From positions 12,090,001 through 12,154,000 of the forward strand of contig CM022671.1 in assembly GCA_012295275.1 (NCBI GenBank): a stretch of DNA of 64,000 bases. The letters run 5' to 3'. A program made the position numbers and the translations under genes. This DNA is from Chrysomallon squamiferum. Lineage: Eukaryota; Animalia; Mollusca. Of the stretch, positions 1 to 37,900 are shown in pieces; within the stretch, counting starts at the first letter, position 1, and each line of letters starts with the position of its first letter. A model generated the notes under the pieces. That model searched no databases. It was not told the DNA's origin and worked only from the letters and a program-made list of their open reading frames with translations.

Positions 1-2326
1 ACCATTCAAACACACACACACACACACGATGATGAAAGTAACAGTAGAAGACTTTTAAAGTAATAAAAGTGGGAGGTTTAGCCAAACTAAAACTACATAA
101 ATTAACCTCCAGCCTCCGTTAAACACCAACACAAAGCTGTAACATGAAATACAGCCTCTTTCACTTAAAAAGTTTTGAAATGGATGTTTTAATAATGAAA
201 CTGAAAATGAGTTACTTAGTCAAGTGTACCATTATAATGAATAAATATTAATTTCACAGACTGAACAAAACTACTTGTTTTTTGTGTTTTAAAAAAAAAA
301 AAAAAAGTTATATAAGAATGTTGAAATTCGGACACTATATGGTCCAGTTCATTAGAACTCTGTGCTTGCTGTGGAAATAACAGCACGTACAAAACAGTTC
401 TCGTTCAGGAATGTCCACACTAAATGGTTATGATTTCTAGAAAACAACCAAGTGAGCTTCTTTTATGTAAAAAAATTTATTATTAAAATGATTTTCTAGA
501 ATGTTACAAAAATATACACACATGATTCATGAATTTTTAGAATTGATGTACACATGAAATTAAAAAAGCATAGAACAATAAAAATTACATATTTTGAATT
601 ATTTAAATTAAATACAAAATCAACATTATTTGAAAGATTTGGTAACATTTTCCGTTTGTCTGGAAAGGTGTGTTTCATGTTGCGTTACAAAGCACTGACA
701 TGCTAAACATCAATAATTAAATAAAAAAGTAATTGTACAGATAGATTTTAAACTATAATTTAGTTTTCTCTAACAAGATTTCAGAAATATACTTTTTTAT
801 TATTAATCCACACCAAAAAAGTGTCAGTTTGCAAATGCAGTTTTTATTTTTAAATAACATCTAAAAAGTCAGATTTAGAATGAACCACTCCTCACTGTTT
901 TGTATGATGTGTGAAAAAACAGTAAACTCAAAACCTTTTACCTGAATTTTAAAAATTATACTTCTTACATGACTCGTATACTGTATATGGTTGATACATG
1001 TATATATAATTATTGATAAAATTATTATCAATATGAAATATAAAACACTGCCAATTTTCCTCAAATTGTAACTGCTCTTTTAAAATTAAACATTTAAATA
1101 TTTATTTAAAAACTATATACATTGTAAAATCTAAAATTTGGTTTATTAATAATTGTATCAATCACTGAAAAATATACTGTGGAAATTGAATATTTTAAAT
1201 TCTAATAAACTATTCAGTGTAAACACAACCAAATTAATCTTCAGAACCAAGGATATTCACCAGTAACAAAATTATCTATACTAAATAAAATACTTGCTGA
1301 TAAATGTATAGATATTAATTCAAAATTCAGCTTGCTAAAGACAAAGACCACGTATGGCATTTCATACTGAGATTTGATTCACAACTATAGAGCATATAAA
1401 TATAAAAATAAAAATATTTGTAAAAAAAATTCTGCATCTTATGAACTACCTATTAGAAAAGTATCTACTAATTTTTAACACCTGTGAAAGAAAACAGATA
1501 TTATTATTAAATGTTTGGAAGAACACAGATTATGGCAAATTCTTTGTTTATAAAAAGTCGTGTAAACAGTTGTTACCTTTTTTGAAATCAGGATTTAATA
1601 GTCACCATTAAGTTTGAAAGGATTTTACAGTAGCCAGTTGTAATTATCTGAGAAAAATTAGGTGTATACAAATACTCTCATTATAACAAATATTATATCA
1701 TAAGGAATGTTATGAAAAAATAATTATAGATAAAAGCTATGGTTATCAATATGCTCACAAAATATTTTATGTACATATGATCATGGAATATATGAAATTA
1801 TTTTGATCAAATGACTATTACAAAATATATACATTATAAAACATGTAAGCGGACTTCTTAATTACAAAGGAATAAGAGATAAATACAAATGGTTTAAAAA
1901 GTAACCAGGAATGTTTGTAGGTAACACATAATAACTATACTACTTCCATGTGGATGATCTGTGTGGTTTGTAGTCAGTTTTAAAAAATGGTAGAAAATAA
2001 TTATTACAATGATTTTTAAAAACTTCAGAACAACAAAAATATTTTAAAATTTATATTAAACAGATTTAAAAATAACACATTGGAAAGTTAAAATAAATTT
2101 TCTTTCATTAAAACTAAGATTTAAAATTATGCAAATAACAGGAATATTTATCAAAATTACTCATGGATAATATTCATTTCTAATTCCACTGAAATTAATT
2201 GTATAATCTTAAACCATGGTGTACATAATACTTACAAATAAAATTATTTTAAACGCATTGTCTAATTCTTCTAAGCGTCATCTAGAGTAAAGGTTTTTGT
2301 GAAAATCAACATCTGCTGCAGCAGAC

Positions 2327-11300: not shown

Positions 11301-14300
11301 TTTATCCAGTGGCTTGCCCCACTCCAGATTGAAATGATTGTCTCCTATAGTGAAAGCCCTTAAAAACTCCACAGGTCCAGGTACTGAAAATATGTCACAA
11401 AATTATAATTTTTTAATCATTCTGATTATATAAAACTGGCCTTTTCTTAAATTTACTTTCTTTAAATAAATCAGCATCTATTATCACAGATACAAAATAA
11501 GAATTGAGTTCTATCCTCAAACTATAATCATGTTACAAAAGAATACTTATAAAATTAGAGATATCTTTGATTCCAGACATTACAGATAGAAACTTTTCAG
11601 TTTTTAATGTTAGTTTTTTACTTTGCTGTCTATCATTTACCTCCTTCCACAGTGTGGAACTTAACAATCTCAGAGGGCCGGCTCACGTAGAAGTTGTTAA
11701 ACACTGACACTCGCGCCTCCATGTAGGTAAATGGAAGCATGTCTCGAACATGGGCTTTAATGAGGTTGCCAACAGCAGAGGCCTTAGCTAATGCAGCAGG
11801 TATGTCAAATTCACGAAACGTTGTTTTCTGATAACCTTCTCTCCACAGCTGAACCTATATTTAAATTAAATATCATATAATGTAATGTAATAACATTAAT
11901 AACATACAATATAAAAATATATTTAAAATTTTGAAATAATAGAAACATTTACACTGAGTGGCTGACATTTTCTGTGGTTACTTTAATTAAAAGAAAAATG
12001 AAAAGAGCAAAATTTGTAAATAGAACTGAAAATGTTCACTATATCCACAAAAATGGTATTAATTGCTGGAAACAAAAAGAACTAAATGGGACACGTTGTA
12101 ACAGATATATTTACCTTAAATCCTTTGAATTCACCTCTAAGTTGGCTGTTTGGCTTATCTATTTCATCCATGGGAAACATCCATGTCAAAATGACCTCTG
12201 TGGCATTGGTCTGTACAACTTTGAGATCTGTGGGTGCTATTGATGGAACTGAAAAACAATATTAACATTGTTTTATATATACATGTACAGTCATAAATAT
12301 AGAAATCTCAATTTCAAACATAATTAAAACCCAATGTGAATAATAACTATACTTTATTAAAAAAAAGCCTAAAATTGTATGGACAGTTAAAATATAAAGA
12401 ACTGTTAGGGGTGGCCTATTTCATTTAAAAAATAAATAACACAATAGTTAATTACTGTAAAATTGTCTGGAAATTCAAATGGATTATACTTCAAAAATAA
12501 TTTACTGAAAATGTAGCTTATATTTTATTTTTATGTACTGATATCAATACACATGAAAACACATAAGCAATACAGTTTTCGTGTGACAACTTACTGTCCT
12601 CTCCGGAATATCCTATGATCGTTCTAGCAGTCGCAGATGCTTCCCCAATACTGTTTTTAGCTTTCAGCGTGATCTCATATGCTTGGTAGACGTCATTGGT
12701 CTGGTAATCATAACGATGTTTCTCCCAGTTCGAAAAAGTCTCAACATGTGCCGCCTCATCGTTATCTCCGACTCGCTTGAATTCCAACACATACTCAAAC
12801 AAAGGCCCGTTGTGGTCTATCTGAGGCATCGGCTGAAAAGAAAAATCTATTTTATAAAGTAACAAAAGGGAAAGGGGTTTTGAAAAATAGAAAATTAAAA
12901 ATGAAAGACTTTGTTACAGTTTAAATATAATAATTTACAAACTAATGTGATGTCTATCTTGTCCATGATATGAACCATTTTTTGAACTTCAAAAATTCTG
13001 AAGAATTTTCCCTCTTTTACAATCAAAGGAACAATCAAAATGAAAAAAAAAGAAACACCCACTACAGAATTACTTATTATATAAAAATAAACAAAAAAAG
13101 ACATATAGAAAAATGAAAAGATATAATACTTACAGTCCATTCAATAGTCAGATTATTTTTTGCTTCTCCTATTGTTCTCACATTGGAAGGATGCTTTTTG
13201 GGTACATCTGGATTTGTTTCGCATACATCTTTTGTGTGAAAGCTTGGATCACTTTCACCTAATTTATTGTAAGCAATCACTCGGAAAGTATAAGTAACAC
13301 CAGGTGACAATGTTATATTGGCAGTGGTTTTCTGTGCTTCAACTTTGGTGGAATATATCCACTTGTCCTGCATAAATGATGTGTTATACTGAACAATGAA
13401 GTACTGCACAGGAGCATTGTTGTAACTTCCTGGTGTCCACCGAACTGTTGCGAAGCCAGAATCACATTTGATAATTCGTACCTTGGTTGGAGCATCTGGA
13501 CGAGCTGATAGAAAGACAAAAATGTCAAGTAACAGTAAATTAAAAATGTATGTATAGATACAGGCATGCATGCTCTCTTTTTCTCTCAAACATTCACACA
13601 ATGCATACATACTCACACGCCAACCACATGCATTGAAACTGGCAGCAGTTGACAATAAAATATGAAAACAATACCTTTGACAGTTAACATAGCTGACCAT
13701 GATGAATTGTCTAATCCATTGGTTGCTACACAGGTGTATGTTCCTGAATCACGCACAATGGTACCACTGATTGTCAAAGAGTTATCCTGCTTGTTGGTTG
13801 TCATTCTTTGGTCATTAGCTGTGATATCTTTGTTGTCCTTCTGCCAGATAATTTTCAGATTGTTTACTTCTTCAGGATCTGTTGTTCCTGAACATGTGAA
13901 CTTGGCATCCAGTCCAGCATACACTTCCAGATCCAGAGGTTTCTGTTCTATCTGTGTTTTACGTCGCACCAACAGGATCCCATTAGCTTTTTCTTTTCCA
14001 TATCGGTTCTCCGCAATACAGACAAAATGCCCCGCATCTGCTAACACCACTTTCTGAAAGAGAGGAACTTTCATTTAGTACAAATATACTAAAACAGAAC
14101 TGAAAAATATCAAAACAGTCAATGATTAAAAAAAACTAATTTACCGTGTTTATGTGAGGATGAGTTAAAAAATGGTTTACCTAAACTGAAAAAAAATATC
14201 TGAATGTATTTTCATTCAAATTAAGTTCAAACAGCTTGTTTTCTGGACTGGTAATGTACAGCATCAATACAAGGCTTTATAAAGTAATGAAAAGAACAAT

Positions 14301-17300
14301 TATGTAAGATATAATGTCAGGATTTCATACGTCAATGTGCAAAGAACCATCCAGCATTGTCCTGTAACGACCCCCTGTTATCTGTTGATCTTCTTTGAAC
14401 CAGGTGATCTGTGGGTCTGGTTTACCAGTGGTCACACAGGTTAGGTTGACCGACTGACCTTCAGCTGTGATCACCTGGGCTGCTGGAGGTGTGATAATTG
14501 TAGGAGCTTCAGCTATCAAAATAAAGACAGAATTCTTTACAAATATTATTTCTATACATTTGTCTGTTATGACTATGTAACATCTGAAAGCCAGATTCTA
14601 TGAAAAATAGATTTATATGAAAGAGTAAAATCAGTTTATAACTGTATTATGTAAAACTAATTTCTTTTTCTTCTAAATACTACAGAAATATTTATTTGTA
14701 ACTAAGCAAGATAAATATATATTTTGATATTACATGTAAAAACAAATGGTAATTTTGACCAGATAACTTAACAAAGAGAAAGGTTATTTTATAATACAAA
14801 TATAAAAACATGTTCAAATTTCAATTTGATAGCTCTAGAAACATTTATTTTTAGTAAGAACAAAGTTTAGATTTATTTTATACTTTTGATAGCAGCATAA
14901 AAATAAATTCTGATTTCTGTGATAAAACCATACAAACTATGGTTTGTAATTCAGTATACTCTGGGTAAGTGTGTTACAAACATACTTTTACAGATTCTAA
15001 ATTGAAAATATACTTACAGAGGACATTGAGGTAAAAATCTCCCCAAACGTATCCATGTTTATTTGTGGCATTGCATTGAATCACCATGGCATCTGTCTTT
15101 GAAACATTTTCAAAAATAACCAACTGGTCATTCAGTTTGCGAAACCGATGATCAATCCGATCGTCAGTGACATCTGCAATCAAATTTTGTTTTATTTAAT
15201 TATTTCTGGCACAATAATCTGAAAACAATAACTTAAAATATTTTTAAGACTACATATTTACATAACAATAAAAGCACTATATGAATAATATTTTCTATAT
15301 ATTCAGTTTTAAACTGACTACTTAAAGTCAAATACAATTTTCAGTAAACATCAAAATGACTGATGTAATAAAATAAAAACAAAAATCGAGGTATCAGTTG
15401 TACTTCATTCTATAAAGATACTTATTTATTCCTCCAGTTTTTCTATGTGAAATCAGATTTAATCAGTTAAACACACCTCCAAGACTAACTCCATTGATGA
15501 ACCAGAAGTATCTCGGTTTTGGATCTCCATCTGCAATACATCTGAATTCAGCCCTCCCTCCAATACCAATTTCCACATCCTTTGGTTCTTCAACCCAGTA
15601 TGGTACAGCTGTAATCAAATGCACAATTATATCAGAATGTTAACTTAATACTTTATGTTAATTTTCAGCAATATCAATTCAATCAAACCCAGTATGGTAC
15701 AGCTGTAATCAAATGCACAATTATATCAGAATGTTAACTTAATACTTTATGTTAATTTTCAGCAATATCAATTCAGTCAAACATTTGTTCATCTGTATGC
15801 AGAAACTGACATTTTAAGGTGAAACACAGAAAGCTCTCAATTTGTTAAATTACTTTTGAAATACATGAAATATGGTACATCATCAGATAAGACAACCACT
15901 AACAAAGCCCCACCAGCCACAGTCTGCTCATGACTAATTTACAACACCTGGAAAACGTTTTCTGCATTATTATGTAATATGGAGTGATTCAAAGTATTTT
16001 CATTAAAAGATATAAAATCAACAAATCTTGGTTCTAAACATGAGATCTTCACTTACATTCCACTCTTATTTTCATGGTTCTCTGGACTCGCTGAGGTGTC
16101 AAGTTGTTTGTAGCCCAACACTCATACTCGCCAGCATCTTCAAGTTTCAGGCCATCAAACTGCATCTCTTGGCCAAAACTTGGAAAATGGACGTGGTCTG
16201 GGAAGGTCTTCCCATCAGTGCGTGCCCAGTGGACATCAGGAGTAGGACTGATATGGAGTTAGTGATGTTAAAAAAATATTCAGTACCAAGAATAATTTTC
16301 AGAAATAACAATGATAACAAAAGTAATTTTATTGTTATAAATTGTTAATAAGATATATTAACACATAACAAGACAAAGAGTTGTACAGAAACTGTTGATA
16401 GAAAAGAATACAGATCCTCTCATTCCACTCTATTTCATGTAAAAAAAGTGGTTCTCAACCAAGAGAAAAGGTAAATATTTATAACTACACTAAATAATTC
16501 ATCAGTGAAAAATTCAACCAGATCTTTGCATTATTTGTAACAGATGGCGGAAAAAATGTTGAAAACCACTAGAGTGAAGTTAACTGATGAAGTACTTCAT
16601 TCTGATTATTAACATAATATACATAGGAATGTGAGTTTTACATTAAAAATTCGTTTTATTTATTAATGCAGTTTTAAAATAATTCTCTTTTTAAATAATA
16701 ATAAGTCTGGAAAAAATTCAGAGCTACTTACTTGCCAGCAAATATGCATTTCAGTTTGAATATGCTGTCTTTTAGTCCAAAATGATCAAGAGGAGATGCC
16801 CACAAATAGCTAACCTTTCTTTGTTCTTCAGTGTCTATGAAACACAGTATAAACATATAGTTTTCCTCCTCAAAAGTACATATTTAATTATTCAATGAAA
16901 TTTTTTTTTTTTTTTTAAATTTAAAAACATGTATCAAAATATTTGCAGAATACCACTGAATTTAGAATGTGCTATTTAAAAATACTCACTTCCTTGAGGA
17001 CGGACAAACTGTTGAGCTCCTTGTGTGTTTTTTCTGACAAAGCCATTCATGGCCATACAGGCATATGGTCTCCCTTCATTTCCATCAGTCTTGATAACAT
17101 TTGTAAAACGAAGACGAGCTGAAATGCAATTTTTGAAGTCACTTTCATACAAATATTATTAAAACATTATTTCAAACCCATTAAAATTGTGTGAAAATTT
17201 AACTGCATTGAACAATGACCCCATCAGAGAACTAGTGTGAGAACAATGTTTAAAAAGAAAATGTCCCAAGTTTCAAGAGTTCAGCATATACATCCCAGCC

Positions 17301-19409
17301 AAAACAAACACCAAATGTGTCCTTATGTGTATACATATACTCTGTTTTGTATTTTTTTATTAAAATTATTTAGAATATACCATAGTTTCTCCATTTTATT
17401 TTACTTGTAAAGATATCAGTAATATTTCAAAAATTAATTTACATTCAAGATCCATTGTTACACGTCCATTAAAGTTGACTGGAGTAAATCCTCCATATCG
17501 GTCCTTTATCACCCAGTAAACTTCAGGTGGTGGGATGCTCTCTGGTGCTACACAGTCCAGTGTCAGTGGCCTGCCAAGTGTGGGATAGTGGGTTATGTCG
17601 GCTTCTATGTCAAATTCCTTCAGCTTAGCCTGTCTTAAGTTATAATTAATGGAGGCTGAAATACCATAACCATTATAAGCAAAACACTGGTAAATTCCTT
17701 CATCTTTATCTTCCGGTCGATTTATAACAATTGTGCCAACATTTGCCAGCTGAACCATCCGATCGTCATGACCACTTGGGTTGAAATCAATCCCATTTCT
17801 CTTCCAGTTGTATCTAAAATAAAATCATTGGTCATATAACTAGTCATATGTGGTTAGTTTTAAACAATATTTATCTTCCTAACTTATCAGTTTGCCCATT
17901 TTGAGGATACATTTTCTGCTGGCTGCTGTAACTACAAGAATTTTGAACTGTCTGCAGCTGCCTGTTTTAAAAGTGTAATACACAATAATAATAATAATAA
18001 TAATAGCAGCAACAACAATAATAAATAACATGTTAAACAACATTACTCTTTTATTATTACTGAAATCATTCTATTCTTTCCACTATATTTGACAATTTCA
18101 TATTTTAACAATTTCAATTTTAACTAGAGTTAAAAGAAGTGCTCATTTTAAAACAAATATCTCTTCCAAATGAAAAATGTGTTTACAAAACTTACTTTGG
18201 TTTAGGAATGCCATCAGCGACACATAACATCTGAACTGTTTCCCCTGCCTTGTAATAAACATTGAAATTCGACTGGATGTAAATACCAGGTGGACGGGTT
18301 ACTGTTAAAAAATATATTTTTAAAAATGTAAACAAAATGTTGGTAAATAATATATAAGATAAAATTGATATGAAATTCATAATCAATCATTATTTTTCAA
18401 TTTCTTTTTTAACACTGAAATTAACAAATTCTTCTTTTTTCAGTTGTAATTATAACAACTTAAAATGACGCAAATGAATGAATTATGTAAATAAAACATC
18501 TTGTTAGTAAGTATATTGTTCTGTCTGTTGAACAGATGAATCTTAATATAAATTATGCTGGTGTCTTACAAGTTCAAAATAAAATATTCTAAACCACTTT
18601 CTTAATTATTTTGAATGGGGTGCTGGTTTTTACAGGCTCATTTTTAACATTTCAAAGCCTTTGTTTAGTTTTCTGCTGACTAATCTTATTTGTAGCATTC
18701 TTTAACAACAAAGGATGACAATAAATCAATACTGTCAGGTAACACTGAGATATCATCATTCAGACATTTTGTTTTGAATTAAATACACAATTCACATTGT
18801 TTTTTACACAACATTTTAGTATCAGTTAAATGAATGATCAAATTAATTTTCAGTATAAACTTATATCTAATCATTTAGATGCAAAACTACATGCACTTTG
18901 ATAACAGATCTATTTATTTACAAGCTGTTCTGTACATTTTTAAACTGAATAGTTGGGACATACACTTGTTGCCTCAAGATAGCATGACATTTTCAATCTT
19001 TATGAACAATTCAGCATATTTATGTGTTAGTTGGGATTTTTTTGTATACATCTATGAATACATTTGTTTATGTATACAATTCACGTGATTGTAACCAAAG
19101 CATGTCTGGCAAAATTCAAATCAGAATGTCTGCCTTCATGGTAGATTTTGCCTTGGAGGCAAGCATAGATGTCCCCCCCAAAAAGTATCTAATATGTTTA
19201 TACTTAAATATATTTTAATAATGTAATCATTTCAAACACTGAATGTTCATTCTAATTCAAATAAAATGTATTCAGATTTTATTGAATAGGAAATGATGTT
19301 TACAACTATTTCAGTCTATTTCACAAGGACAACCTAGTTTTAACTTACTTGCATTTTGTTCATTAATTAAGCAGAGTATGAAACAACAAGATAAAACTAA
19401 GGATTTCAT
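2327..19409 (-). CDS. Nrg: L1CAM/neuroglian-like cell adhesion molecule (signal peptide, 6 Ig, 5 FN3, TM, Tyr/Asp-rich tail ending in the PDZ-type motif DTFV); 21 coding exons
   Basis: GT-AG exons join in one continuous frame: 19349-19409 (MKSLVLSCCFILCLINEQNA), 18196-18301, 17443-17813, 16990-17118, 16732-16834, 16057-16247, 15477-15608, 15018-15173, 14331-14512, 13675-14053, 13134-13504, 12595-12832, 12115-12248, 11641-11854, 11261-11383, 10548-10730, 9907-10026, 9333-9491, 9013(or 9019)-9192 (TM IWWFIGMLLAIIVIILICILVYFCF), 2863-2953, 2327-2633. Ig motifs include DEGIYQC, DAGEYEC and DSGTYTC. FN3 motifs include LSPGVTYTFRVIAYN and LLPNTRYRVYIWART. The 6 Ig + 5 FN3 architecture defines the L1 family; orthology to neuroglian versus a paralog is not resolved. 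Confidence 0.92.
4307..4336 (-). CDS. Candidate 30-nt frame-preserving micro-exon in the cytoplasmic tail of the L1-like gene (xSLTHSIAPA)
   Basis: Minus strand reads ctctgcacttttttacttgccag|TATCTTTAACCCATTCCATTGCACCAGCAA|gtaagt. It has a strong acceptor, a consensus donor, phase 1/1 matching the flanking exons and an open frame. Confidence 0.55.
5206..8569 (+). mobile_element. Decayed, internally deleted Ty3/gypsy-like LTR retrotransposon with INT-RT-RNaseH order (Gmr1-type), inside an L1 intron and antisense to the host
   Basis: Integrase zinc finger (H..GHLG..CEVCQKTGKP) and core at about 5400-5950, RT (DSYPLPRPDDCID, KLDLLKGYFQIPL, YLNDVV) at about 6380-6950, RNase H (DASDVGSGAVL, DHNPL, ADALSR) at about 7220-7578, all with stops and frameshifts. 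A polypurine tract GGAGGGGGA lies directly before the 3' LTR TG at 7893. The first ~115 bp of that LTR are repeated at 5206. The element ends CA at 8569 and TTATT flanks both ends (5201-5205, 8570-8574). Confidence 0.9.
7893..8569 (+). repeat. 3' LTR of the gypsy-like element
   Basis: Starts TG right after the PPT, ends CA before the TSD TTATT, and its start is homologous to 5206-5320. Confidence 0.75.
15592..15779. repeat. 94-bp tandem duplication spanning an L1 splice acceptor
   Basis: aacccagtatggtacagctgtaatcaaatgcac... occurs at 15592 and 15686, near-identical. Confidence 0.95.
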
Positions 19410-21438: not shown

Positions 21439-21805
21439 TCATTTGGCCTAATGCATGAAATGTTTAGGCATTTAGCCTAACACCTAATGACTAAAATTTC
21501 TAGGAACTAGGCCAAACGACTGAAATAGACCTCTAGTCGTTAGGCAAAATGACTGAATGAAAAAGAATGACTAACAATTGTATGAAAACATTTATTTCGA
21601 AACACATCTATTTATTACAGCATTTCAAACTTGAGTGACATCTTGTATTGCACAAAAGGCGCTGCTTAAAACATTTACAATGTTTTGTTTACCACCTCGT
21701 TGTCCGCCCACAGTTGCATTTCAAAAATTCTTGTCCTCCTGTGGATGACTCCTTTTACACCGCTGCTGTAAGAGACATTGTGCTTTCTCTGTTCAGATCA
21801 TCCCT
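21439..21805 (-). mobile_element. Remnant of a DNA transposon with an integrase-like (KRBA2/Ginger-type) Cys-rich C-terminus and subterminal inverted repeats
   Basis: Minus strand 21608-21755 translates KESSTGGQEFLKCNCGRTTRW*TKHCKCFKQRLLCNTRCHSSLKCCNK*, which resembles the GGQG..KCNC..C..C.C....CNSRCH....C.NK tail of KRBA2-like invertebrate transposases. Inverted repeat tcatttggcctaa (21439-21451) / ttaggcaaaatga (21540-21552). Confidence 0.65.
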
Positions 21806-22124
21806 GAAGGTAAAATAGCACACCTTAGTAAGTATTTGAATATCCAAGTATATCAAAATAACGATGTAAAAATTAAATAATCAGCATTTATAATATTATA
21901 TTTTGAAAGAGATCTGTGAAAAGGAGGAACTGAATAAGCAACAAATCTGAATGAAAATACGAATAACTTATACATGTTTATGTATCTGTACATGCTACAG
22001 TGTTTAGAGTCTCACCCACAGTTTTTGAAAGGATGTCGAACACACGTAGATAAGTTTCCGATTATAATCACTAATCGGAAATGTTTAATGTAAACTTTTT
22101 TCAGACTGTTAAACACATTCACTC

Positions 22125-22310: not shown

Positions 22311-22953
22311 ATGGCGACTAGAAAAGTCACACTCGTGTATGTTTTTCTGTGGGTATTACTTTTTGTAAACGGACATAAGATAGCTTATGGAGTGTTTAAG
22401 GTTTGTGATAATTATTGTTGTAATTTTGGTGTTATAATAGAACACCATTTATAAAGGCTATTTCGTGCAAAAGGAAGACGAGAATGAAATATTTCGAAAT
22501 GTTAATTTATTTTTTATATTTATTTATTTATTAATTTATTTATTAATTTATTTTTATCAGGAATGTTAGAGGATTTCAAGTGATAGAAAGGAATATGAAT
22601 AAAGTATTATTATTAATATTTAAGAAAAAAGGAGCTTTAGGTTAATGTTTTTAGCCAAAGCATATGATGAATTTACAAGATGAAAAAAATGCTGTTAAAT
22701 AAATTTTGTTATAAGTATTGATATAGTGCTGTTAAATATATTTTGTCATGAGTTTGGATATAGTTTGTTTAATATGATATTTAAGTCTGAGGTTAGTTAC
22801 TAAGCGGATTAACTTGCCAATTTAGATTTTAATTCATGTTTTTTTCAAACTAAAATTAGGTCTCTCTGTTTGCATTACTTTTTAACGAGGAGAACAGGAT
22901 ATAATATCTAATGTCTGGCATACAAATCTTTGTTGATATATCTACATATTCAC

Positions 22954-23048
<95 letters not shown>

Positions 23049-24871
23049 TTTAACTATATTTAGTTTTCAGTTTTTTTTATAATATTTTTTTATTTTTGCA
23101 GACTGGCCTAAGATGAGGTTTTGACAAACAGTTCCCTTCAGCTAAAGCATTCAAGTCGGAATCATTACTTTAGTATCCTTGTACCATCTAATGAAGTTCT
23201 GTACCACTACTGACTCTTGTAAACTGATCGGTCACTGTTATTATTAGTACTGTTTGTTACAAATCATATATTAATCTAGTTAAACTATGAAAGGTTCAGC
23301 AGTTAAACACTTCAAACACTACGTGTATGAAACAGAAACAATTAGGATTTACTTACAATTAGTGGAGACTCCCATTTTTCTTAGTTCAAGCACCTGGAAA
23401 AAAGAATTTGGGCAGGAATAAAAAGATAAATAAGTTATAATTATTATTATTATAATTGTTATTATTGTTATTATTATTGTTATTGTTATTATTATTATTA
23501 TTGTAAGCAGGACTTCACCTACCACCAATAACTAAATGTCAATAAACAACAACCTTTTTGTTTTAGGTGCTTTTTCTCAGACATTGCATAGTGCCATTTC
23601 CTCCAGGTGCCTTTTTCCGGTGCCATTTTTTTCCAGTGCCATTTTTTCCGCATCCCATTTAGTATACTGGTACGTCAAGCAAAGTTATTGTTTAAACGTT
23701 AAAAAAAGTATAAGCGTTTACGTTATGTTGGGCGTGAGGTTCCAGAGATGAATGTCTATGTCCACTTGTTATCATAAGAAGTAATATAAATATTATTCAT
23801 TATCTTCAGTAAAACACATGCTAAATACGCATTTTCCAAAAACCATATATTTAGTTAAGTACAGCATAGTATTTATTTAGTCGCAACTGACCAGAGTGCT
23901 CATGTGTTAATGTAGATAATGTCGTTTTAGGTCTTACGAAAATGCAGTCAGTTTTGTATCTGATAGAACCCAGTATGAGGCTATTGAATATGAGCAGGGA
24001 TCAGATTTTCATTGTAACAATAATGAGGGATAAATGTTCCGGACACTGCTTCCAGGAAGTGTAAGAATCTTGAAGCCAAAATAAACTGAATTGTTTGCAA
24101 CCTTATATTTAATGTTAAAACCGATTTAAAGAGCTATAGGTTGCAGCCACTATTCGAATTTAGTTTATATTATTTTAAAATATTTTTAAGTTTAATATAT
24201 TGTACATAATGAAAGTAGCTTTAATAACTGATTCCATTTTGTTTCGTTTTTAACAATAATTTTTAAGACGCACTGTTACTGATGAAACAAAGATTTATTA
24301 AGAACATATTTTACATTATGACTTTAACACAATTAAGTGCACCGGCTATGTCTACAGAGGGGGACAGAAAAGTTGACGAACCTCATCTTTTGCTTCTAGA
24401 TGACGCTAAACGTGAAATTTACGTAAGTTATCATCAAATGTTTTGAAGCATCATTTTAAGAATACTATTAGTATTACAAAAAATTACAATACATGAATTA
24501 ATTTTTCAATGAAACTCAGTAACATATACTATAATCTTATATAATCTTATGTAAACCTGATTATTGATGTGGAAACGACATTACTAAACTTACTACATTA
24601 ACAATTATAACACTAAACAGTAAATAATTTTTGTTTGATTATGTATTGTACCTTTTTTCTTCAGAGATTAGATTTAAAAGACCTAAAAACAAGAGAAATT
24701 CGTAAAATGCTACAAGATATTGGTTTCTACAGAAAAACGGATTTTACTGCAGCAATACCTAAAGAATACAGTGAGGGAGTTTCACCTCCAACAGATGGTG
24801 CCACTTTTGATACTTTGGTTTCTGGCAAATCAAGGTGGTCAAAGCATGGGCGTGTACTAGTGAGAGATTAA
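22311..24871 (+). CDS. SELENOM: SELENOM/Sep15-family selenoprotein, 150 aa, in-frame UGA (Sec) at 23114-23116, cysteine-free
   Basis: Exons 22311-22400, 23102-23172, 24338-24422 and 24665-24871 splice to MATRKVTLVYVFLWVLLFVNGHKIAYGVFK-TGLRUGFDKQFPSAKAFKSESLLY-APAMSTEGDRKVDEPHLLLLDDAKREIY-RLDLKDLKTREIRKMLQDIGFYRKTDFTAAIPKEY...LVRD*. It aligns by eye to SELENOM (TCGGU..VKAFV..Y..PELVLL..ERIPL..TREEI..LVQELGFYRK..VPPEY). It has a signal peptide and a SECIS in the 3' UTR. The symbol indicates the family; it may be a divergent paralog. Confidence 0.85.
23173..24337 (+). other. U12-type (minor spliceosome) GT-AG intron in the selenoprotein gene
   Basis: Donor GTATCCTT matches the U12 consensus. 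A branch-site-like CTTTAAC at 24322-24328 lies about 10 nt before the AG, with no polypyrimidine tract. Splicing at these sites keeps the SELENOM-like frame (TA|T = Tyr). Confidence 0.8.
23566..23655. repeat. Degenerate ~14-15 bp repeats (gtgccattttttcc), probably a transposon-end or MITE fragment
   Basis: About five copies of GTGCC(A)TTTTT(T)CC in tandem. The origin is inferred. Confidence 0.55.
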
Positions 24872-24907
24872 CGTTTAGAAAAAGATGATATTTACACACA
24901 CAAACCA

Positions 24908-24981
24908 GCCATCTTGTTATGAAATCCAACGTGTAAAATGATTTGTAATCATAGCTTTGGATGGAACATTTTCTTAATGGC
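24908..24981 (+). promoter_or_regulatory. Type II SECIS element
   Basis: gccat...tgtt ATGA(24919) A ATCCAAcgtgt AAA(24935) ATGATT-tgt-AATCAT agct TTGGAT GGAA(24963) ca...atggc. This gives a UGA/GA non-Watson-Crick core, helix II (ATCCAA/TTGGAT), unpaired AAA, an apical mini-stem and helix I (gccat/atggc). AATAAA follows at 25015. Confidence 0.85.
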
Positions 24982-27793
24982 GTTAGTTTTGTGTGTTTAG
25001 ATATCACTTGAACAAATAAAATATTTAATTTCACTAAGTAATATATTAACTGTTGCTACACAGAAAACAAAACGAGCAAACATTGTTAGAAGTATTCTCA
25101 ACTACGATTTGTCTAATAATTCTGATGTTTTTAAAAAAGATGGATGTAGAAATATAACATAACTATAATTTTTTCACAATATCGTTAACTATATATATCT
25201 TTTGTGTGTGTGTGTATACACACACACACACACACACAAATATATAGGTAACAGGCATTTTGTTTTGTTTTATGCCATGCTTGAATCTGATTCAACTAGT
25301 GGTTAATTTAATCATTGTAATTAGATTTTTTTGTTGTCACTGGGGTTTAACCAAGTCAATGTTAAAAAGCTGTTAATATATATATATATATATATTAAGA
25401 AAAGTATATAGGTAACATCTATATTTTTAATAAACTGATATTTTTAAACGTGTATATGGATGTTGATAATTTGTTAATTTTATTTCTTGTTTGATGTGTG
25501 TGTATATATATATTTGCTTCTTCAAAATAAAATAAAATTAAAAACGGTAACACAAACAAATTAAGGTCTAGTAATTAGCATTTTATTGAAACAAGTATGT
25601 TTGTACAAAATTATTAAGACAAATATCACATGCAATATATGTACAATGAACAGAGTCTGGTGTATATTCATGACCGAAATGACACAAAAATAATGAACAT
25701 GTCACTAAAGAAATGAAAATGAATGAATGAAAACATTAATAAGAAATTACTAAACATGATATACCAACATAATGAATATAAATGTAGGCCATAAAAATCC
25801 TGATTGGCAATATTAGTAGCATTTTATGGGGGGATTTTTTTTATCTTGTAGCAAAATCAAAATTAAATGCGATATAAATACTAACTTTTCTTAGAAAAAA
25901 AAGAAAGAAAGTGAATGAACAATTGAATAAATGATGACTTTAGAATTTATTTATATGCAGAGAATGAGCAAAAAAACCCCACCAGAACTGACAATGTCAA
26001 TCAAATCAAATATAGTTGAGAATCTGAAACGATACATTCAATCTCAATGACTTGTGTAAGAGCTTAAATGATCAATTATATCAAAGTGCATTTCAAACTA
26101 ATATCAAAAATACAATCAAGCAAAACAGATTTTTAAAATATTTTATCAACACTAATTAAAACAGAAACTTACTATTAGCAGCATAGCCATTATTTTTTGT
26201 GTGGAGTACTATATTCCAAATATATTTGTCTAACTTCATTTATAGCTATTGTTTAAATGTTCAATGAAAATCAGAAATTGTCAGTGTTGTTTTAGATAAC
26301 TGCCCCTTCACTCACATCACCATCCAGCCATTCTATAAAACAGCAATGAATTTTGATTTACAATGGGAAAGATTACAGCAAAATCAGTACATAAATGTCC
26401 CCCCCTACCCTCCAGAGTAAACCAGCCTGTCCAGAGTGGGAGTCGTCCAGCTCTTCCTGGAAACACTGGCACAGACTCTGTTACTAGACTTCAAACATCT
26501 GCAGTGAAATTGTGAAAGGCAGATGTAAACAAAGTGGCTATCAGCATTGACTAGGAAGTACTGATCTGGTAAAACACACAAACACGATTTTACCTGAGAT
26601 AAACAGTTGTCCAAGATGTCACATAAAATACAAAAATATGTTGTCAATGAATTAAACACTGTATTTAGAGGCCAAAAGTTATTTCCCCACTCATAACTAA
26701 TAAATGTGTTCAATATTTGTTTCTATTTAGTAAAACTAATTTCAATTTTGTTATTTATAATTAAACATAAGCCAAATATTCTCTTTTCAGTAAAGAACTG
26801 CTCTCTATTGTATTCACTCTGCAACTTGATTTTTCATTCTAGTGTTGTTGGTTTTTTTTTGATATTGTAATTGTATTTCAGCACAATTTCTTTTGCCTGT
26901 GAATTTCTAATTTCTAATTCATTTTTAATAATACATCTGAGAAAATGCATCATAAATAAAATGTTTGAGAAAGGCACTGAAATGATGATGCAGCTGATGA
27001 GTATATATTTTAAGCTAAAGATTTTCGTCAATGATAACCCTTTAAATTTAAAAAAAAAATCTCCCAAGCTAACATCCCAAAAAAACCCAACCAAAACAAA
27101 CTGAAAAAAATAAAATAAACAATAATAATAATAATAATTTATGTGTCAAGAATGCTCTACAATTAATTGTTAATAGATATATTTGGATTAAAATTAAAAA
27201 ATAAAATATAAATTTAAACAATAACAATTATTAACACTAGCAGCAAAAGATGAGTGGCATAAATCTACTAATACCACATGGTGACAATATATATATTATA
27301 TATACAACAAGTATGTGACATACAATACAAACATATACACAATAGATAATATTAAGTAGGGTGAGTTTCAATGATTTAATTGCACATATGGCAAACATAA
27401 AAAATGTTAACAGTCAGATCAAGAAGAAAGTGCTACTTTCTGAACATTTTTTAATAGTGTGAATGCACTAGAAATGGAAAAGTATGTTATTTAAGAGAAT
27501 CTGTAATGGTAATAATGCAAGACATTTCTTCATAAATTCATCCTAACTCTTCACAGCCATATCATTTCTTATTATACATTTAGTGTCTCTTATTACTTCT
27601 TTTGATGATAGATGAAAAGACTAAAATACACTGTCATAAAATGAAGTCAGGATGTCAATCTCTGTGGATGTAAGAACAAAAAAAAAAAAAATTAAAAAAA
27701 AAATTAAAGTTAAAAGTTAAAAAAAAATATATTACAGAAAATACAAAATAAAGATTAAAAAAAAAAAAATAGGAATTAATAATAATAATAATA

Positions 27794-31022: not shown

Positions 31023-31971
31023 AGAAAAACAAAAATAAAGGAAGATGTTATAAGAGATGATACAGGTACCGATCCATTTGTCTGGCTTCCAGAAATTTTG
31101 AAAATTTTGAAACTGGCTTCTTTTAAATTAAGTGTGCTTTGTTTTAATTCAAGTGAGAGAACACTGCTGTGTACAGATGAACCTTTCACAAGAATTATTA
31201 TTTTTTTTTTTTTTCAGTTTACACTCATTTTTATTTATTATCTTGTCTAAAAGACTAGCAGAAATGCAACTTTCTAGTGAAAAGTGTTCTATACAGGTAT
31301 TTTAAGAATTTTAAGTGAATTAGAAAGATCAACCACATAGTGCTTTAGAAGTGTATTGATTTTTATCTGTTTATTACAGTTTCATTATTTTATATTTTAA
31401 TTAAAATCTAGCCTGTATCCAAAAATCAAAACCTCTGGTTCCAAGCTTGCCACTACTTATGTAAATGGTTTGGTACTTGTATGATAGTTTCCAGGCAATG
31501 ATTTAGTGGGTTTTTTTTAAAGTCATTTGTGTGAAAAGATGTATGTACATGCTGGTTTCTTTTATTGTGCATAACTGGATGAAAGGTTAAAGATACAATT
31601 TATACGACATGAAATCATTTGGCCACAAAAAACATTTTTATCCTGTAATAAAAATAATAATGATTATATAAATCCTTGCATTCCTATAAATTAAAATTTA
31701 TTAAATCACTCTTCTCATTTCTTCTCATAACCATTTTGTGAAGATTTTACAAGTAAACAGTCATCTTCACTGCATTAAAAATATCCTTGTCCAGGATGAC
31801 TAATGCTCTGACGGAAACTAATAAAAGTGTGAAATCTCTCTGCTAGATTCCATTTTGATTTCAATTCCAAGAAAAATAATTCTCAGGAATAGGAAACATG
31901 CAATTATGCTCCCAAAAGAACAAGCTAACTAAGACATGCATATGACAATTTGTAACCAGCAAGTCCAGTGC

Positions 31972-34900
31972 CTACTGAAACAATGTCACCAACTGTTTGG
32001 CAGCCTTTGCAATATCATACGCAAACTGAATAATTTGCTGTGTCTTATGATTAGGGTCAAAGTCCTCTTCATGTCCAGCTATGGGTGGACAGTCTAAACA
32101 CTCTGCTCTCAGTTTTGTGGCACTAGTTGTGAGAAGTAGTAAAGCTGCACTGACCGTATCAGTTTTTATAATCTGAAAAATAAATGTTATTGCATTACCT
32201 GTTATCCATGAATTTAATTATGAAACCTATAATTATTTTAAATTTATAAAACTGTGTTATTTATTAATCCAGCAAAAGAGAAACCTTTAGAAGATAATTA
32301 ATAAAAATTCATAATTGTTATTTATAAATCTAGTAAAAGTGAAACATACAGAAAATAATTATTTAAACGTAAAAAAAAAACTATGTCATTTATGAATGTG
32401 ACAAAAGTGAAAGGTTAAGATAATAATCATTTAAAAATCAATAAAACTGTTTTATTTATGAATCTGGCAAAACTGAGACTTGTACAAAAATCATTATTTG
32501 TAATTTATAAAATTATTTTTCACTCCCAATCACTCACTCAAAATTTATGACATTCTCATGCACTAAGGTACAAAATCTCTCAATCTCAAAATAAGTTTAT
32601 ACTAAAAGATTAAAAAAATAAATAAATAAATGAACTGAAATATTTATTTTAAAATTATTTTTAGAGATAGAAAATATTATAAAAAACTAACCTTTGGGAA
32701 AATTGACTCCATCTCAGAAACAGCTGCGTATATCTTGTCAGAACATGGACCATAACTGAAGATAAACAATAAAGTTTTCAAGAATACATAAACAGTAACA
32801 TAACTTGTTTGTAATAAATCACTATGTATGTGATGCATGTATGAATGGATTGCTATAGAGTTATTTAGACTGGTGCTTGACTGATTTATGTTTAGTAAAA
32901 GCTACTAACCAACCATCTTTTAATTATTACATATTAAATTTTTAAAAGAGGAAAGTAAGATGCTTTCAGTGTATTGTTAAATGAAACACTTCTTACTTAT
33001 TTTAAATATTGGCTAATTCTTATCAAATCCTCCCCCTTACCTTTGAAATATAAGTTAACAGTTTGTAAGAAACAACAATTCTAAAACTAGAAGACACTGT
33101 TCAACACACCTAGCAAGATCACCTTCTTGCGCTTTCTGCAACAACTCCTGTATCTTCTTTGTGATTTTTTCTGTTTTATGCACTACCTCTTCCTCAGACG
33201 GTAATTCCACTATTGCATCATCGACAGGCAGCAAGGCTTTGACCCCAGCATCATTAAGCACAGAGGAACAGTCATGAAAAACATCTGAGTGTGGTCTGTA
33301 AAATAATTTTTAATCTATGAGGATTAGTCTCCAACAGAATCAATTACTGTTGTATTCGAAGATATAGTATAATCTGCCATTAAAAATACACATATAAGAC
33401 TGTATATTTAGTGCAAATATACAAATCATATCAGTACAAGTTAATAACATCTACCTGTCTTCTATATTTGGCACAGGAGTATCATAATCTGGATCAGGAA
33501 TATTAGCATTGAGCAAGTCTTGGTTGGGATGATCCTCTGGCAGAGGAAATGCTGCTGATGCCTGTGAGAGAAAACAGTTTATTAAAGAAATAAAAACTAC
33601 ACCAAACTTAACCAAGATATGAATCAACAAGATATAACAGAATAAAATGTGCAAAGATCAATCATTTTTATTATAAATTACATAAGTAAATGCCACTATT
33701 TGAATAACTTGGTACAACTTATAGCTACATCACAAACCTGTCCATCAGCATTAATGTGGATATCAGCAACTGATGAGGAAGTAGCTATTATTTCTTCTTT
33801 GCTAGATCCCTACAACCCAAAATAAAATACATTAGTAATTACAAAACTCTTTGTCATATCAGGAAATCAATAATTTTAAATAATTAGAAAAAATAAAATA
33901 AACGGAACAATAAAATGAAAAAATATTTTTAACTAATATATAATTTTTAAATCATAAAATAATTATTGTAAATGGTGAAAAATATCATTATTCAGATTAA
34001 ATTTGTATGTAAATTATCATAAACTGCTAAATTGTAATTCTTATTATAACCTTCTGTAAGGATGACCTCAGCTGGTCTCTTGGCTCAAACATTGACTGGG
34101 GTCTGATACTAGACTTTGATTTCCGAGACTGAAGACTGTCATCAGAGAAATTTCCAGATGAAGTTCTGATGCTGGTGGGCAGACCATTAGGCAGAGGAGG
34201 TGGTGCACATGCAGCCTCCCTAAGATTTCTTTCTCTTAAAGCTTGATTCTCTTTTAATAATGTATTAATCTTTAAAAAAAGAGAAAATAAAATAAAAATA
34301 AAATAATAGTTTTAATGATTATACAAAAAAAAAAAAAAACCATGCACACATTTACACACACTTACTACATTCAAGATATACAATGGGTGGGCAAAAAAAC
34401 AACAACCACATTTTTGATCATACTGTCATTTGTGGGCAAACTTTCTGTATATTTTTAACATAAGGTTTTCAAAATATCACTTCCAAAAAGATACTCTCAA
34501 GTTTGGACAAGAACTGAATTACAACTTATTTCTCTGATAAAGATTGGCAAAACTCATAAAGGAATATCCTGGTAAGACATGGATATATATCAGTAAACAG
34601 AGTGTTGAAAAAGACAGAAAGAAGAGAATCCACTGAGAAGAAAGAGTGAAGTGACTGATCTAAAACAGCACGTACAAAATCTAGAGGAAGCTATCTGTTC
34701 TCAGGAGGATAATCGAGGAAGCTGCTTAATGACTCATGATATAAACATTTCAGACTAATTGTAAATACTAATTAATATTCTTACTGTGCTCTGCATTATC
34801 TGGAGTCTTTTCTCTAAGTCATGTTTGTCATGTGACAGGAGTTGAATTTTTGATTCAGAAATAGCAAGTGCTTTCTTCACTTCCACATATTCATCTGTAG

Positions 34901-37900
34901 AAACTGGCCCTTCCACTTGTTCTAACATGCTCTGAAAATTAATAATGTAAAAACTTAAATAAATTCACCAGTTTCGCATTTAGATTACTAAGTCAAAAAA
35001 ATATGTATCTGTAATTAACATGAAATTTATAGAAAAACTTTAAATGCAGTTTGTGACTACATCCGTGGTTAGCAGTGTGCTTCATCCCTGGTGGTCAAAT
35101 GCAGTTTGTGACTACATCCGTGGTTAGCAGTGTGCTTCATCCCTGGTGGTCAAATGCAGTTTGTGACTACATCCGTGGTTAGCAGTGTGCTTCATCCCTG
35201 GTGGTCAAATGCAGTTTGTGACTACATCCGTGGTTAGCAGTGTGCTTCATCCCTGGTGGTTGACTGGACTAATAAAGGAGTCAAGGTATGTCTATGGTCC
35301 AAAATGAGCTCACAAACACTGGGGTCAGTTATGGTAGTTGTTGTAATATGATCTTTTGCTGTTTAATACTTTTTGAAATTATGAAAGTTTTTACCTTTAA
35401 ATAGAGAAATTACTTATTGATAATATTTATTTAAGTAATTCAAACACAAGGGGTCAATGTGAGGTCAGCATTACTTGAAGAGATTGATGGTCTAAAGGTT
35501 CTGCCCACTACACTAAAATATAATTTAATTAACAACAGCAAGTCCTCACTAAAGTTCACAAAAATCAACAACAACAATATCCCAACACCCAAAATAAAAC
35601 CAGTAGATGGCAAAGTCAGTATGATTATTATGAATTCAAAAAATTGATACAATTAATATATATTATATAGATTCTGCATTATTTTCTTTTATGGGTTTAT
35701 TATTCAGTTCTGAAATAAACTGATGTTCATCTTAATAACAACACCTATTTAATAAAAATTGTAATGGAAAATAAATAACAATAACAAAAAGAAAACAAAT
35801 GCACACATTCTGAACATTTATCAACTAGAATATAGTATTAACGTTTTCTTATCAGACCTTTGTGATTTTTCTTTTTCATTCATACAGCATCAGATCATTT
35901 GATTACTTCATATTTTGACCTTTTAGATTTTATCAGCAAATTTCAACAAAAAGAAAAAAAAGAAAAGAGAAAGCAACTATATTAGATCACGTGTTTAATC
36001 TGTGAAAATCTACTGAATTAGTTTTTACACAATCTGAACATTGTTCATATGCACCCAAAACTCATCTCTATATTTCAAAAGCTATTTAAATAAAAAAATT
36101 TAAAAAAGAAAGAAAAAAAAAGAAACTAAGGGCAGAGAAAATATGCTTCATGAAAAGTAGATGTGGATTTGTGCAAGAAATAACAGCAAATTTAGCAAAT
36201 TATAGAATTGCCAGAAAAAGAAAAATGCATTTAAATATGCTACGTAACATACCAATCTATGTGTGGAAGTAAACAATTTACCATTATACACAAAATTATA
36301 AAATATCCCTACCTTTTTATATATTTAGTCAAATGTTTATTTAAAAAATTTGTTTTAAAATCAGATGTACATATGTAAATAGGCAGACTAAATGATTTCT
36401 TGATGGAGTTATAATTAAAATTTCTCCAGCTTTTATTATTATAGTTATATTTCATGTTACAGAATGAATGACTGAATTTTTAATAAGAAATGATGTATTT
36501 AATATTAATGATGATTAACTGTCACTTGTCCATTTTGTTGCATAATAATGCTACAAGAGAGGAAAGCACACAAGAAAGCAAAAGATAACCATTCACAGTA
36601 CACTGCTTAGGAATAATTACTGTACTCACGTATACATGAAGAAAATTAATTATAATTAACTATGAATACAGATTATAAAATGTTAACCTATATCTGATTA
36701 GTATGTTCTTGAAAAATACTATTTCAAATTCATTTAAAATTAAAAATTAAACAAATTAATTCAAAGAACTGTTTATAAAGACAACTGCAGGTGCAGGTTG
36801 GTGCAAAATAAAAGCATGACTAAACCTAATAAGAAAAGTGAATAAGGTTAGTAAGCATTTTTTGTTATGAGTATTAGTAGATGGTTATGTCAGCTCTAAG
36901 ATTTATATTAGCTTTGACTTTCTCACCTCAGTAAATGAAATAATGGAAGTTGGAGTAAATCGCTTCGTGGCTTGATCCTACAATGTGTACATTAGTTCAG
37001 TTTCTTATCTCCAGACAAAATCATATAATTTGTTAAATTTTTAATATGCACACTGGTATTTAAATTTTTAAATCAGTTTTAACAGACTATAATAAAGACC
37101 CACTTCACCAGAAGATCCAGTATTAAAACAGAAAGAAACTTTTGAACAAAGTAAATATATAATCACAAAACATTAACTAATAAAAGTAATAACTGTAGAA
37201 AATTTAACTAAAATTTGAAATCTTGTAAATTGTGATATTAAATTAGGATTTGAAAAATAATCAATAAAAATTAATAAATGCTGCAATGCTGTCTATGATC
37301 AAGTAAAATAGTAACAATAGTTTGACTCTTGATTTTATAGTTTCAGTTTTCCTCACTTTTGGAATTCTGGACCAAGTTTGGAATACAAAATCACAAAATC
37401 AGAACTATACTTCCATTTAATTATTAAACTATTCTGAGAGCCCACTATATGATCACACTGACCCTCTCTCAATCTACTTTCAATAACGGTATCCATAACT
37501 ATCCTAATCTAACAAACTTCTTCCAACATAGCCTACATTTTTCTTTACATTTGTATACTGTATGGCACTTGTTTACATTGTTTTTATGTCTGAATATTGT
37601 TCTTACATTATTATATTACTGTATTCAACAGTTGTTATGTGTACTGAAGTTTACTGTTTTGGTAAATTTCAGGATTAATGTTTATATCAATAATTTTTCA
37701 GACTTCTGTATTTTCTTGGATGTGGCGCTCCCCCCTATTAGTCTGTGAAGTTGAGGGTCAACAGTATTCTAAACCATTTTGGATTTTTATTTTATTTTTG
37801 AAATAAATACATTATAAAATATTAGCTATAAAGACAGTAAGTGAATTACAGCTTTATTATTTACATTAGCTAATATTATTTAGAAATATGTTTGCATGAA

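What the first reader, a model, noticed from the sequence alone, without database searches (positions are those of the whole stretch)
22311..24981. Hidden cysteine-free selenoprotein: SELENOM-like gene with GxxU active site and intact SECIS
Seen: four exons splice into a 150-aa protein with a signal peptide and an in-frame TGA at the position where SELENOM has Sec (TGLRU vs TCGGU). A well-formed type II SECIS starts about 40 nt after the TAA, and the predicted protein contains no Cys. Established: SELENOM uses CxxU and SELENOF uses CxU, while fish Fep15/SELENOE has Sec without the partner Cys. Inference: this is an independent invertebrate loss of the resolving Cys, giving a mono-selenol thioredoxin-fold protein that would need an external reductant or partner. 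Standard gene callers would truncate it; the ORF track shows only its last exon.
Basis: partly seen in the sequence, partly recalled or inferred. Interest (0 to 1): 0.9.

Follow-up and report, generated by a model that had tools for sequence, protein, structure and literature searches.

The report
Cysteine-free mollusc selenoprotein M variant
A spliced, transcribed four-exon gene, likely of a mollusc, keeps a UGA codon where selenoprotein M likely carries its selenocysteine yet encodes no cysteine at all, so it likely makes a single-selenium redox protein of an overlooked molluscan branch that would need an outside partner to recycle it.

Summary
The gene is real. RNA contigs join all four exons and keep the TGA (one study). 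The frame is 150 aa with TGA at codon 35 and no Cys. Exons 3-4 are SELENOM-type (PDB 2a2p, E 2e-11 by profile). All three introns match vertebrate SELENOM boundaries read from annotation artefacts, which places TGLRU on TCGGU. The N-half alone is not significantly similar. A type II SECIS-like hairpin at 24908-24981 is the best in the window and beats 3000 shuffles, but scores only 17 bits against Rfam's cut-off of 35.

New here: relatives in Solemya, Batillaria, Littorina, Babylonia and an unnamed contig share a distinct C-terminal tail and lack the xDEL-like end of vertebrate SELENOM. All are truncated, so whether they also lack the Cys is untested. Intron 2 looks U12-type.

Independent Cys loss is plausible but not shown: no SELENOE sequences were in hand and the trees are unresolved. 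Sec insertion itself is unassayed. Sec without a partner Cys has precedent (fish Fep15, recalled), and this scan noted it before in protist SelM-like genes. Verdict: new variant of a known kind.

The parts
22311..22400 (+). Exon 1 coding part: ATG, predicted signal peptide, start of the mature chain (30 codons, phase-0 donor)
   Evidence: X2 contig covers 22307-22398 and joins to exon 2; signal peptide by hydropathy only
23102..23172 (+). Exon 2 (71 nt), beginning TGLR-TGA; same length as the T-to-Y span that vertebrate SELENOM splits over two exons
   Evidence: (3 of 4 runs, 0 other letters)
23114..23116 (+). In-frame TGA, codon 35, predicted selenocysteine; Gly32 (23105-23107) sits where SELENOM has the Cys of CxxU
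   Evidence: register inferred from intron positions
23173..24337 (+). Intron 2, likely U12-type GT-AG: donor GTATCCTT, branch-like ACTTTAAC at 24321-24328, no pyrimidine tract; phase 2 within the Tyr codon
   Evidence: joint in 3 of 4 runs; sequence; consensus from PMC2846911 passages
24338..24422 (+). Exon 3 (85 nt); its end aligns with the PELVLL strand of SELENOM
24665..24871 (+). Exon 4 coding part: SELENOM-type helix and GFYRK region, then the molluscan tail, TAA; no xDEL-like end
24776..24868 (+). C-terminal tail (31 aa) shared with the molluscan relatives, absent from vertebrate SELENOM
   Evidence: 27.4 bits on a profile of four other molluscan tails; 0 of 5000 shuffles reach it
24908..24981 (+). 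Candidate type II SECIS: helix I 24908-12/24977-81, core AUGA 24919-22 and GGAA 24963-66, helix II, apical AAA 24935-37, ministem 24938-52
   Evidence: covered by the same RNA contig as the coding exons in X1, X2 and X3
21730..21827 (+). Alternative first exon spliced to exon 2 in one contig; in-frame TAG three codons before the joint, so likely non-productive for the full protein (5' end set from the 98-letter loose end; only its last 30 letters were displayed)
   Evidence: table 7 (X1)

Best explanation
The gene is spliced into a 150-codon frame with no cysteine codon; its UGA-35 is likely read as selenocysteine through the 3' UTR hairpin, giving a predicted secretory-pathway SELENOM-type protein that would work as a single-selenol oxidoreductase recycled by an outside thiol. 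Shown: splicing, retention of the TGA in RNA, zero Cys, SELENOM homology of residues 68-119, and the shared molluscan tail. Inferred: Sec insertion via SBP2/eEFSec at the SECIS, 395 mRNA nt downstream; signal-peptide entry into the ER; and a thioredoxin-like fold over the whole chain. Mechanism committed to (inferred): the Sec35 selenolate attacks a client disulfide or oxidant. With Gly in place of the resolving Cys, the mixed Se-S intermediate cannot be resolved within the chain, so glutathione or a PDI-family or partner thiol resolves it in trans. The conserved tail, which stands where vertebrate SELENOM ends in an xDEL-like signal, likely binds the partner that recycles or retains the protein; otherwise it is secreted. 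Odds: Sec is inserted about 0.9; the trans-resolved catalytic mechanism about 0.55.
For: RNA joints and an intact TGA; 150 aa with 0 Cys. PDB SelM 2a2p is the only hit of exon 4 (E 0.0011) and top hit of the relatives' profile (E 2.2e-11). The spliced protein scores 41.7 bits on a 17-sequence vertebrate SELENOM profile. 3 of 3 introns match vertebrate boundaries inferred from mis-annotated records. Exon 2 has exactly the 71-nt T-to-Y length of SelM with TGA at codon 5. The SECIS pattern is best of 93 matches in the window and 0 of 3000 UTR shuffles pass, with UGAN/KGAW core and apical A's as in PMC3753652 (passages). Five records from four named mollusc species and one unnamed record conserve the frame downstream of the UGA. 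The named ones all start downstream of the Sec position, the 'downstream' error typical of N-terminal-Sec families including M (PMC12822975 passage).
Against: The half that holds the TGA has no significant similarity to SELENOM: exons 1-3 score -0.3 bits, shuffle p 0.09-0.42, and exon 2 finds no PDB hit. The best match of 'KAF' needs a one-residue offset against the U-to-U register. Rfam SECIS_1 scores below cut-off and a snoRNA model scored higher on an overlapping stretch. My SECIS filter was home-made, with thresholds set knowing the candidate. Pfam Sep15_SelM was not hit by any of the 4 single exons. No orthologue's N-terminus or SECIS was seen. RNA support is contigs from one study. An isoform lacking exon 1 exists. 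No catalytic data exist.
Confidence: 0.6

Rival explanations
1. A true selenoprotein that does not turn over as an oxidoreductase: Sec35 forms a stable intermolecular diselenide or Se-S link (homodimer or holdase), or binds metal, as reported for Cys-less SELENOK.
For: No Cys in the chain; strongly diverged active-site half; SELENOK lacks CxxU and forms a diselenide homodimer (PMC9344019 passage).
Against: Sec is kept at the redox-site position of a family whose members show thioredoxin-type activity (PMC9344019 passage); the C-terminal strand-strand-helix core is kept.
Confidence: 0.2
2. Not an independent loss: the gene is the protostome orthologue of fish SELENOE/Fep15, and the Cys-less branch predates the protostome-deuterostome split.
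For: Same outcome, Sec without partner Cys (Fep15 motif recalled; the paper was not held). My trees contain no SELENOE and resolve little.
Against: PMC13134290 (passages) maps the origin of SELENOE to Gnathostomata and did not find it in non-vertebrate outgroups; no mollusc name tried was found in its readable supplement. All 29 non-mollusc hits of the profile are SELENOM-type, and none is named SELENOE.
Confidence: 0.12
3. UGA-35 is a plain stop. The gene is a decaying SELENOM copy, or yields only a C-terminal product from Met58; the hairpin is a relic.
For: Weak Rfam score; divergent N-half; a non-productive isoform; database relatives are all short.
Against: The only stop in 150 codons falls on the Sec position. 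The frame stays open across three RNA-confirmed junctions. The mRNA is steady enough to assemble in 4 of 4 runs. The SECIS core and stems are intact. Exon 4 is 63% identical to an unnamed relative and its tail is conserved from a bivalve to gastropods.
Confidence: 0.08

Closest known systems
SELENOM / SelM (Pfam PF08806 Sep15_SelM; PDB 2a2p)
   Same: C-terminal half homologous; three shared intron positions (inferred); Sec at codon 5 after intron 1; predicted signal peptide; 3' UTR SECIS.
   Different: CxxU is GxxU and the chain has no Cys. The intron between the Sec exon and the next is absent. N-half is diverged beyond significance. A 31-aa tail replaces the xDEL-like end (17 of 17 vertebrate records end in DL/EL, 0 of 6 of the tail group).
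SELENOE / Fep15 of fishes
   Same: Same superfamily; Sec without partner Cys (recalled, not checked in a paper or sequence here); functionally uncharacterised (PMC13134290).
   Different: Reported only in jawed vertebrates (PMC13134290, PMC3316567, PMC3473315 passages); no sequence was available here, so orthology is untested.
SELENOF / Sep15 (PDB 2a4h)
   Same: Same fold family; ER redox protein.
   Different: Uses CxU and an N-terminal Cys-rich UGGT-binding domain (PMC9344019 passage); the candidate has no Cys and no such domain, and 2a4h was not among the 5 PDB hits to E 10.
Nucella lapillus KAL8562588.1 (P0042)
   Same: Gastropod SelM-like protein found by the same profile.
   Different: Does not score on the tail profile (-1.6 bits) and ends in RDEL; suggests gastropods carry a second SelM-like lineage.

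Membership tests
Eukaryotic selenoprotein gene | In-frame UGA retained in spliced mRNA | tested here: met
Eukaryotic selenoprotein gene | 3' UTR SECIS with UGAN/KGAW core, apical A's and helices, on the same transcript | tested here: met
   Pattern and shuffle test; contigs span CDS and element
Eukaryotic selenoprotein gene | SECIS reaches Rfam RF00031 gathering score | tested here: not met
   17.1 bits against 35, full-length alignment; none at gathering score
Eukaryotic selenoprotein gene | UGA or Cys conserved at the same position in orthologues | not testable with these tools
   All molluscan records are N-terminally truncated; no genome is held; metagenome scans were empty
Eukaryotic selenoprotein gene | Sec incorporation (75Se, MS or reporter) | not testable with these tools
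   Needs a bench experiment
Sep15/SelM superfamily (PF08806) | Homology to the Sep15/SelM redox domain | tested here: met
   2a2p E 2.2e-11; 41.7 bits on a SELENOM profile; single exons miss the Pfam model and Solemya P0005 reaches only 12.6 bits
SELENOM (canonical) | CxxU redox motif | tested here: not met
   GxxU, 0 Cys
SELENOM (canonical) | Intron positions | tested here: met
   3 of 3 candidate introns match boundaries inferred from annotation artefacts, not genomic DNA; one vertebrate intron is absent
SELENOM (canonical) | C-terminal ER-retrieval-like tetrapeptide | tested here: not met
SELENOM (canonical) | N-terminal signal peptide | tested here: inconclusive
   Hydropathy consistent; no predictor available
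SELENOM (canonical) | Thioredoxin-like fold of the whole chain | tested here: inconclusive
   Only C-terminal fragments were folded: Solemya model pLDDT 72, top Foldseek hit 2a2p at E 0.61; exon 4 model poor
SELENOE / Fep15 | Sec without partner Cys | tested here: met
   for the candidate; the Fep15 property is recalled
SELENOE / Fep15 | Phylogenetic grouping with fish SELENOE | not testable with these tools
SELENOF | CxU motif and Cys-rich N-terminal domain | tested here: not met
   0 Cys
U12-type intron (intron 2) | RTATCCTT donor, branch site near the 3' end, no pyrimidine tract | tested here: met
   Donor exact, branch element imperfect; consensus from PMC2846911; no PWM scoring done

The most novel reading that the evidence does not exclude
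A mollusc-wide, uncatalogued fourth branch of the Sep15/SelM family, present from protobranch bivalves to caenogastropods. It has convergently lost the resolving cysteine and swapped the ER-retrieval end for its own conserved tail: a secreted or partner-tethered single-selenol thioredoxin-fold protein, hidden in every annotation seen here.
Probability: 0.4. Interest if true: 0.7.

Novelty: new variant of a known kind. Interest (0 to 1): 0.52.

Why it matters
SELENOE/Fep15 remains functionally uncharacterised (PMC13134290). A second, likely independent Cys-less member of the family gives a natural comparison for how a lone Sec works in a thioredoxin fold and which partner recycles it. It also points to a gap in molluscan selenoproteomes. 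A 2012 survey listed no SelM for Lottia (PMC3473315 Table 1), and the molluscan relatives found here are all truncated, mostly as hypothetical proteins. A divergent profile built from them could recover the family across molluscs.

Tried and rejected
No genome is held for this window, so a separate canonical CxxU SELENOM in this organism could not be sought; tblastn finds no second copy within the window. My first exon coordinates were off by 1-3 nt and were corrected. Word-based searches with exon 4 found nothing. The ESM Atlas gave no usable hit for exon 4 and only sub-0.9 Sep15/SelM leads for the Solemya protein. P0004, 1 of 5 hits, is an unrelated DUF4397 repeat protein and was dropped. 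Both metagenome scans found no confirmed locus (69 and 75 pattern matches), and the genome-contig scan did not run. The second read-laying did not complete, so run X5 and the region upstream of 22100 were never laid, and the alternative exon rests on a 30-letter loose end. Two trees did not recover the tail group as one clade; forcing it was not rejected (p-AU 0.19), and no SELENOE or SELENOF was included. The wide structural search was busy three times. The miRNA and snoRNA Rfam hits are low-complexity matches far below cut-off. A second SECIS-like pattern at 24771 passes my filter but lies inside exon 4's coding sequence. A 'CGU' reading in the alternative exon is out of frame with exon 2 and was dismissed. 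No paper on a divergent molluscan SelM appeared in the listings of searches. None on a U12 intron in SELENOM appeared in two searches or in one supplement. The library lacks most subscription papers, including the Fep15 paper and an ER-selenoprotein review. The supplements of PMC3473315 (its alignments could show invertebrate SelM motifs) and PMC8848931 could not be read.

Full report
Observation. The window is AT-rich animal DNA. Its neighbours are an Ig-domain L1/neuroglian-like gene on the minus strand upstream, a GIT ArfGAP on the minus strand downstream, ANKRD13 and a matrix metalloprotease (Pfam; 'neuroglian-like' is my label from the Ig and FnIII-looking exons). The four exons 22311-22400, 23102-23172, 24338-24422 and 24665-24871 give 150 aa with one internal TGA (codon 35) and no Cys. 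Contigs from 4 of 4 RNA runs, all of one study, confirm the structure: intron 1 joint in 1 of 4, intron 2 in 3 of 4, intron 3 in 4 of 4. Exon 2 has no other letters in the 3 runs covering it, and one X2 contig spans all four exons and the 3' UTR to 25102. Introns are essentially uncovered, so this is spliced RNA. One X3 contig (depth 5.5) differs at 24375 (D67N) and 24994; either may be an allele or an error.

Family. Exon 4 hits only mouse SelM in the PDB (E 0.0011). Among 1.84 billion representatives it finds 5 proteins at E up to 0.001. One is an unrelated repeat protein (dropped), one an unnamed ENA record (63% identical), and three come from Solemya velum, Batillaria attramentaria and Littorina saxatilis. 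Their profile returns 36 proteins of 1474 candidates: the four database seeds, a Babylonia 'selenoprotein M-like', a second Batillaria model, a Nucella protein and 29 vertebrate-type SELENOMs, with none named SELENOE or SELENOF. The profile hits 2a2p at E 2.2e-11, and Sep15 is not among the 5 hits to E 10. The host is therefore likely a mollusc (inference). The spliced protein scores 41.7 bits on a 17-sequence vertebrate profile, aligned over residues 68-119 only.

Is the TGA the Sec codon? Sequence similarity does not show it. Exons 1-3 score -0.3 bits, exon 2 has no PDB hit, and 1742 to 8408 of 20000 shuffles match the N-half alignments. Gene structure does support it. Mis-annotated vertebrate records reveal their exon ends: several skip from RGRVE to VKAF (P0035, P0053, P0055, P0057), one from RGRVE to RIPL (P0043), and intron-like leaders precede RIPL (P0063) and, via a Ser, HNL (P0065). 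The window's own read-through ORF has a Ser at the same phase-2 junction. All 3 candidate introns match these inferred boundaries. The SelM span from T of TCGG to the split Tyr is 23 codons plus 2 nt (2a2p), exactly the 71 nt of exon 2, with the TGA at codon 5 as for Sec. Gly32 then sits at the Cys of CxxU. This reading comes from annotation artefacts, not vertebrate DNA, and needs compensating one-residue gaps inside the exon.

SECIS. The element at 24908-24981 has an AUGA/GGAA core fitting UGAN/KGAW (PMC3753652, passages), six consecutive helix II pairs, AAA 12 nt past the core, a 6-bp ministem (type II) and a 5-bp helix I. It lies 395 mRNA nt from the UGA. In a home-made scan it has the best energy of 93 pattern matches on both strands of the window; 445 of 3000 dinucleotide shuffles of the UTR gave any pattern and 0 passed the filter (thresholds set knowing the candidate). 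Against: Rfam SECIS_1 aligns over 1-64 of 64 but at 17.1 bits (cut-off 35), below an overlapping snoRNA chance hit; it is absent; and 2 of 3 unconstrained folds differ.

(a) A conserved tail. A profile of the Solemya, Batillaria, Littorina and Babylonia tails scores the candidate at 27.4 bits and the ENA record at 24.5. Nucella scores -1.6 and vertebrates at most 1.4 (12 of 17 scored); 0 of 5000 shuffles reach the candidate (4001 scored, maximum 11.7). All 17 vertebrate records end in DL or EL, and none of the 6 tail-bearing proteins does. An AlphaFold model of the Solemya fragment shows the strand-strand-helix core plus short tail helices (pLDDT 72); its best PDB match is 2a2p, weakly (E 0.61). 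(b) Every named molluscan record begins downstream of the Sec position, the error PMC12822975 (passages) reports as common for N-terminal-Sec families. This is consistent with a hidden UGA but leaves their motif unknown. (c) Intron 2 has the U12 donor RTATCCTT, a branch-like element 10 nt from the AG and no pyrimidine tract (consensus PMC2846911, passages). (d) One X1 contig uses an upstream first exon ending at 21827, with an in-frame stop before the joint.

Mechanism. Most likely Sec is inserted (about 0.9). The protein then enters the secretory pathway and acts as a single-selenol oxidoreductase whose mixed Se-S intermediate is resolved in trans by glutathione or a partner thiol, with the tail binding that partner in place of an ER-retrieval signal. 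These steps are inferred from SELENOM biology (CXXU, ER-luminal, thioredoxin activity; PMC9344019 passages). Rivals are a stable diselenide or non-catalytic role (0.2), deep orthology with SELENOE (0.12) and a plain stop (0.08).

Comparison and novelty. It works like SELENOM but fails two defining features (CxxU, xDEL-like end), so it is not filed as canonical SELENOM. SELENOE is mapped to jawed vertebrates (PMC13134290 passages; PMC3316567 passages), which favours an independent loss. My trees lack SELENOE and SELENOF, do not recover the tail group as a clade and do not reject it (p-AU 0.19). That Fep15 lacks the partner Cys is recalled; the paper was not held. PMC3473315 Table 1 (passages) lists no SelM for Lottia, which would fit a divergent molluscan gene being missed (speculation). 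No paper on this subfamily appeared in the search listings named under Tried and rejected. Earlier scan notes describe SelM-like genes without the partner Cys in protist-like genomes (unchecked), so the loss may recur in this family; none matched this sequence or genome. PMC2375036, PMC5981252, PMC9183203, PMC2958745 and PMC8557442 were read as passages only and added background.

Verdict. A real, transcribed, probably Sec-encoding, Cys-free SELENOM variant belonging to a likely molluscan branch with its own tail. New variant of a known kind; interest 0.52, rising to about 0.7 if orthologues share the Cys loss.

Noticed in passing
window 21730-21827 (+): Alternative first exon spliced to exon 2 in one RNA contig, with an in-frame stop just before the joint; lies between this gene and the head-to-head Ig-domain gene.
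   Followed up: partly
window 23173-24337 (+): RNA-confirmed GT-AG intron with a U12-type donor and branch-like element; U12 status of the matching vertebrate SELENOM intron is not established.
   Followed up: partly
window ~2300-19200 (-): Multi-exon Ig-domain gene with FnIII-looking exons, resembling L1/neuroglian, head-to-head with the selenoprotein gene (Pfam Ig hits).
   Followed up: partly
window ~5400-7600 (+): Broken LTR-retroelement remnant (RT-RNase H domain; integrase- and RT-like fragments) inside an intron of the Ig-domain gene.
   Followed up: no
window ~31900-47100 (-): GIT-family ArfGAP gene (ArfGap, GIT1_C). RNA contigs at 25495-25700 may be its 3' end, converging on the selenoprotein 3' UTR.
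   Followed up: partly
window ~49400-54600 (+) and ~59700-63700 (-): ANKRD13-family gene and a matrixin (Peptidase_M10) gene.
   Followed up: partly
P0042 (Nucella lapillus KAL8562588.1): A different gastropod SelM-like protein with a long C-terminal extension ending in RDEL, also N-terminally truncated; possibly another hidden selenoprotein lineage.
   Followed up: partly
window 24771-24830 (+): A second, weaker SECIS-like pattern inside the coding part of exon 4; probably chance.
   Followed up: no
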